DNA of 33,807 nucleotides, from the NCBI GenBank assembly GCA_964016885.1, contig CAXHJY010000974.1:1-33807 (forward strand). The letters run 5' to 3'. Shown piece by piece: positions 27,631 through 28,117 of the stretch. The notes under the pieces are model-generated. The model was not told the origin of the DNA, ran no database searches, and worked only from the letters and a program-made list of their open reading frames with translations. Positions within the stretch are counted from its first letter, which is position 1. Every line of letters begins with the position of its first letter. Made by a program: the position numbers and the translations under genes. Origin of the DNA: Eledone cirrhosa. Taxonomy: Eukaryota.

Positions 27631-27762
27631 TGCACAAGTTTTATTTAAAATTGTTGGGTTACAACAAGTAAATATTTTATAACCGATATAAAACACTCGA
27701 CAAGTATTTGGAGTAGATATACGATAGTAAACAAATGGAAACTATATTTATAAAACCATATT

Positions 27763-27828
27763 TATTTCATTATACATATTTCAGGGATACCATATTAAAA
27801 ATATGGCATGCCTTCGTCAGATAAAATA
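27763..27828 (-). ncRNA. Mirror copy of the same hammerhead ribozyme
   Basis: Exact reverse complement of 27961-28026. Confidence 0.82.
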
Positions 27829-27960
27829 CAATATATAAACTGTTTTATAAATAATTTTGACGTACTATAAATATAAGCCACCGTTAAGCCAGCTACTTAC
27901 CTTAATGCTGGCTTATATTTATGGTACGTCAACATTATTTATAAAACAGTTTATATATTG

Positions 27961-28026
27961 TATTTTATCTGACGAAGGCATGCCATATTTTTAATATGGT
28001 ATCCCTGAAATATGTATAATGAAATA
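27961..28026 (+). ncRNA. Minimal type-I hammerhead ribozyme
   Basis: Stem I TATTTTAT/ATGAAATA; CTGACGA 27969-75; 14-position stem II 27976-28006 with one mismatch; GAAA 28007-10; stem III TATGTA; predicted cleavage after AUA at 28018; AATAAA at 28023-28. Confidence 0.82.
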
Positions 28027-28066
28027 AATATGGTTTTATATATATAGTTTCCATTTCTTTACTATC

Positions 28067-28117
<51 letters not shown>

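What the first reader, a model, noticed from the sequence alone, without database searches (positions are those of the whole stretch)
27717..28072. Second hammerhead palindrome: divergent twin ribozymes, identical across the ribozyme
Seen: 172-bp arms with 6 mismatches, none inside the 66-nt ribozyme. Each arm reads outward as hammerhead then AATAAA, and the right arm ends in (TA)n. The left arm continues into sequence with a diverged copy at 25358-25474. The head-to-head layout matches 12486-12893 but the sequence differs. Inference: a recurring non-autonomous palindromic ribozyme element type, or a recurring Penelope inversion product. A transcript through it could form a long dsRNA hairpin that competes with ribozyme folding.
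Basis: partly seen in the sequence, partly recalled or inferred. Interest (0 to 1): 0.74.

Follow-up and report, generated by a model that had tools for sequence, protein, structure and literature searches.

The report
Twin-primed Penelope retroelement stub palindrome
This palindrome is two short, back-to-back copies of the hammerhead-bearing end of a common Penelope-like jumping gene in a TA repeat, a known kind of insertion, and its sister copies suggest both halves were likely written in one event from two fixed start points rather than moving as a palindromic unit.

Summary
Observation confirmed: 172-bp arms, 6 mismatches, and a 66-nt minimal type-I hammerhead motif reading outward in each arm. 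The arms are 5'-truncated ends of a ~4.1-kb Hydra-like Penelope-like element (PLE); its hammerhead 20-mer has 1426 exact genomic hits. It is not a mobile palindrome: 27 of 28 measurable junctions differ, this one occurs at 3 loci, and short arms form no clade. Identity across the ribozyme is chance-level (P=0.05 here; P=0.79 over 39 pairs). Sister copies follow two rules. One arm ends at a long site with a ~100-nt tail and the other at a short site (45 of 47 classifiable pairs). 5' ends pile up at +1..+30 of an Inr-like site (53 of 122 arms; none at -10..0). Best model: twin priming from both ends of a (TA)n break on a short, promoter-initiated RNA, joined by microhomology. Inverted copies, one-sided tails and opposite-strand twin hammerheads are published; the passages I read propose self-priming instead. 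This scan's unreviewed notes reached the same reading on other DNA of this genome. No RNA data were available.

The parts
27626..27888 (-). Long arm: 5'-truncated PLE pLTR from +22 of the inferred RNA start through the hammerhead to the long 3' end
   Evidence: 97-98% to family copies
27626..27716 (-). One-sided tail (~90-100 nt; end blurred by TA microhomology). In tandem copies it leads through a 22-nt linker to the ORF start
27763..27828 (-). Minimal type-I hammerhead motif; predicted cut between 27771 and 27770
27886..27888 (.). 3-nt microhomology shared by both arms at the junction
27889..27900 (+). 12-nt spacer: ordinary element sequence (+10..+21) carried only by the short arm
27886..28072 (+). 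Short arm: pLTR from +7 of the inferred RNA start to the short 3' end
27924..27929 (+). Splice-donor/DPE-like hexamer at +45; resembles the Penelope promoter layout (inferred, untested)
27961..28026 (+). Minimal type-I hammerhead motif; predicted cut between 28018 and 28019
28023..28028 (+). AATAAA overlapping helix I (mirror at 27761-27766); internal to the element, role not shown
28073..28122 (.). (TA)n target, right side
27370..27625 (.). Degenerate (TA)n target, left side
25338..25480 (-). Separate older (~80%) tailed arm of the same family, truncated inside the hammerhead; lacks the CUGANGA core
12486..13030 (.). Same kind of product from a second, related family (46% amino-acid identity): short arm 12486-12689 (-), long arm 12690-~13030 (+) with a ~137-nt tail

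Best explanation
The palindrome is one insertion of a Hydra-like Penelope-like retroelement, made of two 5'-truncated copies of its hammerhead-bearing end joined head to head in (TA)n, and it was likely made by twin priming on a short RNA that likely starts at the element's own promoter. Shown: family identity, two fixed 3' ends, one long plus one short arm per insertion, variable junctions with microhomology or filler, a sharp upstream limit to 5' ends, and a shared source for both arms. Inferred: the element's protein cuts both strands of (TA)n; one end primes at the long site and the other at the short site ~100 nt upstream; both cDNAs run toward the capped RNA start and are joined by end-joining. 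Each event makes a new axis. This copy is probably inert and decaying. A read-through RNA would pair its only sense hammerhead with the antisense arm, and the motif is predicted to need a sense dimer to cut.
For: Longer copies carry the ORF between or beside the same arms. The ORF has DKT, YRDD, CxCX5C, CxxC and CxH motifs. Position-ordered sample from contig C1 (74 loci): 45 long+short, 2 short+short, 0 long+long and 2 unclassified of 49 pairs, binomial P=8e-12. A second sample of 17 loci gave 15 of 15 clear pairs long+short. The other family gave 18 of 18 pairs. In 31 of 40 untied pairs, this one's pattern included, the short arm has private 5' sequence and the long arm private 3' sequence, so neither arm can be a fold-back copy of the other cDNA; 5 of 45 pairs do not overlap at all. 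Both end types also occur unpaired. 5' ends: 53 of 122 at +1..+30, 0 at -10..0 and 1 at -30..-11. The base before +1, when not the templated C, is G 42, T 40 and A 18 of the first 100 of 245 (counted by hand), which is compatible with a copied cap. Arms of a pair differ less than arms of different loci (2.9 vs 6.7 differences) and share 19 rare variants over 40 pairs. In vitro, a PLE protein cuts and extends both strands and starts at two sites that bracket the tail (PMC11167929).
Against: No RNA evidence for the start site, cap, splicing or cleavage. The +2 control for the cap G did not discriminate: G was about as frequent there, confounded by A-to-G transitions. None of 27 ORF-adjacent pLTRs stops at +1..+30 and 15 run upstream past it, so a second template class must be assumed for long copies. 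The short arm reaching further 5' is also expected simply because it starts 100 nt closer, so it does not prove one shared RNA molecule. Some junctions do recur: 3 loci for this one and 11 pairs with one axis among the first 100 hits of the second family. The C1 sample was picked by an exact hammerhead 20-mer. Two pairs (L102, L104) were dropped by hand as separate insertions, and L073 was lost to an identity filter. In vitro initiation sites were reported as non-homologous to the target, whereas here both sites are TA-rich.
Confidence: 0.72

Rival explanations
1. Same PLE product, but made by self-priming (fold-back) of a cDNA or of an antisense RNA, as proposed for rotifer Penelopes.
For: Proposed in PMC3846280. 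A small inverted repeat lies at this axis, arms share private variants, and microhomologies of 1-4 nt occur at 12 of 28 junctions.
Against: cDNA fold-back cannot give a copy arm that carries a tail absent from its template (31 of 40 pairs). Antisense fold-back with trimming cannot give the 9 of 40 pairs in which the long arm reaches further. ORF-adjacent copies read through the same small hairpin without stopping.
Confidence: 0.17
2. A non-autonomous palindromic element (MITE- or SINE-like) that moves as a unit.
For: Axes cluster tightly. This junction recurs at 2 other loci whose flanks do not match the window's, and one axis is frequent in the second family.
Against: 27 of 28 junctions are distinct. 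Short arms mix with long copies on the tree: 18 changes versus 19.7 shuffled, 127 of 500 shuffles as low, on a weakly resolved tree. Recurrent axes sit on microhomologies and occur on different subfamily backgrounds. One of the two other loci carries an extra duplication at the junction.
Confidence: 0.06
3. A host-selected twin-ribozyme or dsRNA regulatory device.
For: No mismatch inside the ribozyme at this locus; very stable hairpin.
Against: P=0.052 here, and no depletion across 39 pairs (P=0.79) or in 16 pairs not picked by the hammerhead word (8/1056 vs 11/1423). 18 of 45 pairs lack one core. The two motifs are on opposite strands, so one transcript holds only one.
Confidence: 0.03
4. Assembly artefact (chimeric fold-back read) on a small unplaced contig.
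For: The window is a whole 33.8-kb contig rich in simple repeats.
Against: The arms differ at 6 sites and have different, family-typical ends. The same architecture occurs at dozens of chromosome-scale loci.
Confidence: 0.02

Closest known systems
Hydra clade of C-terminal-endonuclease Penelope-like elements (Craig et al. 2021, PMC8557442; includes Hydra-1_Obim)
   Same: DKT, CxCX5C linker, no CCHH cysteine pair inside the GIY-YIG core, CxxC and CxH motifs, hammerhead in the pLTR, (TA)n targeting
   Different: RWR instead of RWK. The unit is ~4.1 kb with a ~1.5-kb 3' UTR, whereas Hydra elements are generally <3 kb. The hammerhead listed for Hydra-1_Obim differs in sequence. No phylogeny against named references was run.
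PLE insertions with an inverted 5'-truncated copy and a one-sided tail (PMC8557442 Fig. 2; PMC2377424; PMC3846280)
   Same: Head-to-head inverted ends, tail at one end, microhomology junctions, Inr-like TCACT in the pLTR
   Different: The tail is ~100 nt (~137 nt in the second family) versus the published 30-40 bp. Many insertions are pLTR-only stubs bounded by the inferred RNA start.
Minimal type-I hammerheads of metazoan PLEs (Cervera and de la Pena 2014, PMC4209133)
   Same: Long helix II, palindromic helix III predicted to need a dimer; dual motifs 100-700 bp apart on opposite strands were already noted in Schistosoma
   Different: Longer AU-rich helix I (8 bp); activity untested.
Non-LTR retrozymes (bioRxiv 10.64898/2026.07.22.740005)
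   Same: Short, non-coding, pLTR-derived, type-I hammerhead
   Different: Retrozymes are head-to-tail tandem arrays forming their own families; this is head-to-head, and short copies form no separate lineage.
LINE-1 twin priming (recalled, not from a call)
   Same: Two target-primed cDNAs joined by microhomology give a 5' inversion
   Different: Here both priming sites are fixed and the two cDNAs usually overlap, giving a palindrome instead of a plain inversion.

Membership tests
Penelope-like element (EN+) | Single ORF with RT followed by GIY-YIG endonuclease | tested here: met
   By motifs read in L031 (one frameshift). Pfam gave no hit for the ORF itself. Among 42 aligned members RVT_1 hit 1 and GIY-YIG 2, weakly. 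PDB searches were empty.
Penelope-like element (EN+) | pLTRs in partial tandem and/or inverted orientation, 5' truncation | tested here: met
Penelope-like element (EN+) | [quoted passage not shown] | tested here: met
   45 of 47 classifiable pairs; longer than the published 30-40 bp
Penelope-like element (EN+) | Hammerhead motif in the pLTR | tested here: met
Penelope-like element (EN+) | Retained 5'-UTR intron | tested here: inconclusive
   Donor-like site at +45, but the acceptor AG is not conserved and 3 candidate spliced copies were not spliced; no RNA
Hydra clade | DKT in place of DKG | tested here: met
   residue 118 of P0121
Hydra clade | CxCX5C linker; CxxC and CxH flanking the E and N residues; CCHH pair absent between GIY and YIG | tested here: met
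   P0122 residues 94, 192 and 219; a single Cys in the GIY-YIG stretch
Hydra clade | RWK motif | tested here: inconclusive
   RWR here; RWK in 3 of 4 homologues checked
Hydra clade | (TA)n insertion preference | tested here: met
Hydra clade | Generally short (<3 kb) | tested here: not met
   Unit ~4.1 kb; given in the paper as a tendency, not a diagnostic
Hydra clade | RT phylogeny groups with named Hydra elements | not tested
Neptune clade | CX2-5CxxC linker and CCHH motif | tested here: not met
   my first label, withdrawn
Minimal type-I hammerhead | Core CUGANGA / GAAA / UH with helices I and II and a palindromic helix III | tested here: met
   Related families change the insert but keep it palindromic
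Minimal type-I hammerhead | Self-cleavage | not testable with these tools
   The genomic test for 5' ends at the cut site was inconclusive
Non-LTR retrozyme | Head-to-tail tandem units each with a hammerhead | tested here: not met
   head-to-head pair
Mobile palindromic non-autonomous element | Fixed ends and fixed axis across copies; own lineage | tested here: not met

The most novel reading that the evidence does not exclude
Penelope-like elements make their signature inverted copies by obligate asymmetric twin priming. An RT-endonuclease dimer starts one cDNA at the tail end and one at the tail-less site of the same capped, uncleaved promoter transcript, and so keeps spawning fixed-end, variable-axis ribozyme stubs with no independent SINE lineage. 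Long and more-than-unit copies come from a different template without a promoter boundary, such as a hammerhead-processed circle.
Probability: 0.4. Interest if true: 0.68.

Novelty: new member of a known kind. Interest (0 to 1): 0.38.

Why it matters
The structure itself is ordinary for its class and should not be annotated as a new ribozyme device or a microRNA hairpin. Its value is as a data set on an open question: how PLEs make head-to-head copies and one-sided tails, and what the hammerhead is for. The one-long-one-short rule, pairs of both polarities and the sharp 5' boundary favour twin priming over the published self-priming idea. They give exact positions for an in-vitro assay and for cap mapping. 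Hundreds of such stubs (my estimate from 1426 exact hits) are also potential dsRNA sources.

Tried and rejected
Rfam: no hammerhead model among the 150 of 204 hits listed for the window or the 16 for the locus; the miRNA hits reflect hairpin shape only. Pfam and PDB searches of the ORF gave nothing. The Neptune label was rejected on motifs after earlier notes pointed to Hydra. A general RT stall at the small axis hairpin was rejected: 0 of 27 ORF-adjacent copies stop there (3 of 30 loci unscorable). Spliced copies: 3 candidates were ordinary truncations or inversions. Pile-up of 5' ends at the predicted cut: 106 hits versus 265 for a neighbouring control, both confounded by subfamily variants and indels. 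The script flagged 16 of 30 inspected hits as truncated there, and about 3 of those are diverged intact motifs; inconclusive. The cap-G control at +2 was not discriminating. No second copy of the locus was found, so there is no empty site to compare. Monomer folding does not return the hammerhead as the minimum-energy structure, as expected for a motif with an unstable helix III. Sequence look-up in earlier findings was blank.

Full report
Observation. The inverted repeat is as described: arms 27717-27888 and 27901-28072, six mismatches, a 12-nt spacer, and no mismatch in the 66-nt motifs at 27763-27828 (-) and 27961-28026 (+). Each motif is a minimal type-I hammerhead with an 8-bp helix I, a long helix II and a palindromic helix-III insert. 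Related families in fetched loci vary the insert but keep it palindromic, the pattern described for PLE hammerheads that work as dimers (PMC4209133, parts 1-2 of 4 read). No Rfam hammerhead model is among the locus hits. Identity across the ribozyme is not special: P=0.052 here, and 21/1794 versus 45/3456 mismatches over 39 pairs, P=0.79 (L196 left out for an internal insertion, and the 20-mer used for sampling excluded).

What it belongs to. The arm has 1031 first-look candidates in the genome, 40 of them scored, and its hammerhead 20-mer has 1426 exact hits with 0 in the control. Longer copies put up to ~4 kb of the same element between the arms, including an ORF. In tandem copies the tail leads through a short linker into the ORF start, so the arm is the pLTR. 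The ORF has RT motifs, DKT, a CxCX5C linker, a GIY-YIG-type region without the internal cysteine pair, CxxC and CxH. These match the Hydra clade description (PMC8557442, section 11 read whole; other passages; supplement search rows), apart from RWR for RWK and greater length. Its 556 homologues are mostly unnamed; the top named ones are from Argonauta hians, so the host is probably a cephalopod (inference). Pfam and PDB give no direct support. I first called it Neptune. Earlier scan notes pointed to Hydra, which I then tested.

Is the palindrome a unit? I fetched all 74 loci behind the first 100 hits on contig C1. There are 49 head-to-head pairs after dropping L102 and L104 by hand and losing L073 to an identity filter (51 by the looser rule). 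Of 28 pairs with both 5' ends defined, 27 junctions are distinct; 12 show 1-4 nt overlap, 4 are blunt and the rest have filler or intervening sequence. The window's junction 20-mer occurs at 3 loci, and the other two do not share the window's unique flanks. On a tree of 80 arms the short ones are not clustered (18 changes versus 19.7 shuffled; only 2 of 58 branches well supported). In 15 of 45 pairs the long arm lacks the ribozyme core, and in 3 the short arm does. So the palindrome is an insertion product, not a mobile unit.

Rules among sister copies. (1) There are two fixed 3' ends ~100 nt apart, both abutting (TA)n. Pairs are long+short in 45 of 47 classifiable cases (P=8e-12), in 15 of 15 clear pairs among 17 further loci (one complex, one single), and in 18 of 18 pairs of the family behind 12486-12893 (46% amino-acid identity to this family). 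(2) 5' ends stop at a wall: 53 of 122 arms begin at +1..+30 of a conserved TCACTA motif, none at -10..0 and one at -30..-11. A donor-like hexamer lies at +45, and Penelope's intron starts 46 bp after its start site (PMC2377424, passages). An Inr-like TCACT was noted in rotifer pLTRs (PMC3846280, passages). The second family has 813 hits starting at a TCATT-type site just upstream of its hammerhead. The non-templated base before +1 is G 42, T 40, A 18 in the first 100 of 245 (hand count; G versus A P=0.003), which fits a copied cap. The +2 control was also G-rich and the second family shows G in only 24 of 100 (hand count), so this sign is weak. (3) Arms of one insertion share a source: 2.9 versus 6.7 differences, and 19 shared rare variants. 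The window's arm differences are private to one arm, consistent with decay after insertion.

Mechanism. In this copy and in 31 of 40 untied pairs the short arm holds unique 5' sequence and the long arm the unique tail, so one cDNA cannot be the fold-back template of the other. In 9 of 40 the polarity is reversed, which an antisense self-priming model with trimming does not cover; 5 pairs do not overlap at all. Two independently primed cDNAs explain all classes. This fits in-vitro work in which a PLE protein cuts and extends both strands and initiates at two sites bracketing the tail (PMC11167929, parts 1-2 of 4 read). That the short arm usually reaches further is expected from its head start and does not prove a single RNA molecule. 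Against a simple picture, none of 27 ORF-adjacent pLTRs stops at the wall and 15 pass it (P=2e-6). Long copies therefore appear to use a template without that boundary, such as read-through RNA or the circle proposed in PMC4209133; this is inference. A test for 5' ends at the predicted cut was inconclusive. A read-through transcript of the palindrome would be a -242 kcal/mol hairpin holding one sense motif fully paired, so it is predicted not to cleave; expression is untested.

Prior knowledge. Inverted 5'-truncated copies with one-sided tails (PMC8557442) and dual hammerheads 100-700 bp apart on opposite strands (PMC4209133) are published. Retrozymes differ in being tandem (bioRxiv 10.64898/2026.07.22.740005, part 1 of 5 read). 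The mechanism proposed in the passages I read is self-priming (PMC3846280). Six searches listed no PLE paper proposing twin priming; the two hits were seen as listings only. Subscription papers such as Arkhipova 2006 and Evgen'ev and Arkhipova 2005, and the bioRxiv supplements, were not seen and may bear on this. LINE-1 twin priming is recalled. Unreviewed notes of this scan reached the same reading on other DNA of this genome; they are not independent evidence.

Verdict. Real, ordinary in kind, and a new family member. It is useful for a mechanistic question. Interest 0.38.

Noticed in passing
window 5818-5868 (+): A third, unrelated minimal type-I hammerhead motif (5-bp helix I, palindromic helix-III insert); relatives seen in L060 and L097.
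   Followed up: partly
window 12486-13030: Second PLE family with a ~110-nt insertion in helix II and a ~137-nt tail; its inferred RNA start lies only ~7 nt upstream of the core, so one symmetric axis recurs often.
   Followed up: yes
window 10862-11315 and 19896-20133: Two further, older inverted repeats (83% and 81%) without an intact hammerhead core hit; possibly decayed products of the same kind.
   Followed up: no
L250/L251 (G000:C1:377086016-377086331): 285-nt direct repeat in which early ORF sequence is joined to the predicted hammerhead cut position, twice; could reflect a small circle or a template jump from a cleaved RNA end.
   Followed up: partly
G000:C26:23054703-23055410: At least 8 tandem ~97-nt units containing the 3' side of the hammerhead region.
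   Followed up: no
L007, L014, L024, L030, L049: Older subfamilies and related families form the same long+short palindromes within a few hundred bases of younger ones, so (TA)n tracts accumulate nested PLE stubs.
   Followed up: partly
window 2319-2446, 6250-6379, 7977-8210, 14134-14605, 15139-15377, 16923-17160, 17637-17815, 24956-25083, 26212-26390, 31332-31555: About ten copies of a ~180-bp dispersed SINE-like repeat, 75-92% alike.
   Followed up: no
window 1-1360, 20600-24110, 28870-29720: Very long degenerate (TA)n/(TATG)n arrays.
   Followed up: no
L031 ORF (P0121 C-terminus, P0122): Asparagine-rich stretches after the RT core and before the linker, reminiscent of the N-rich inserts described in rotifer Penelopes.
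   Followed up: no
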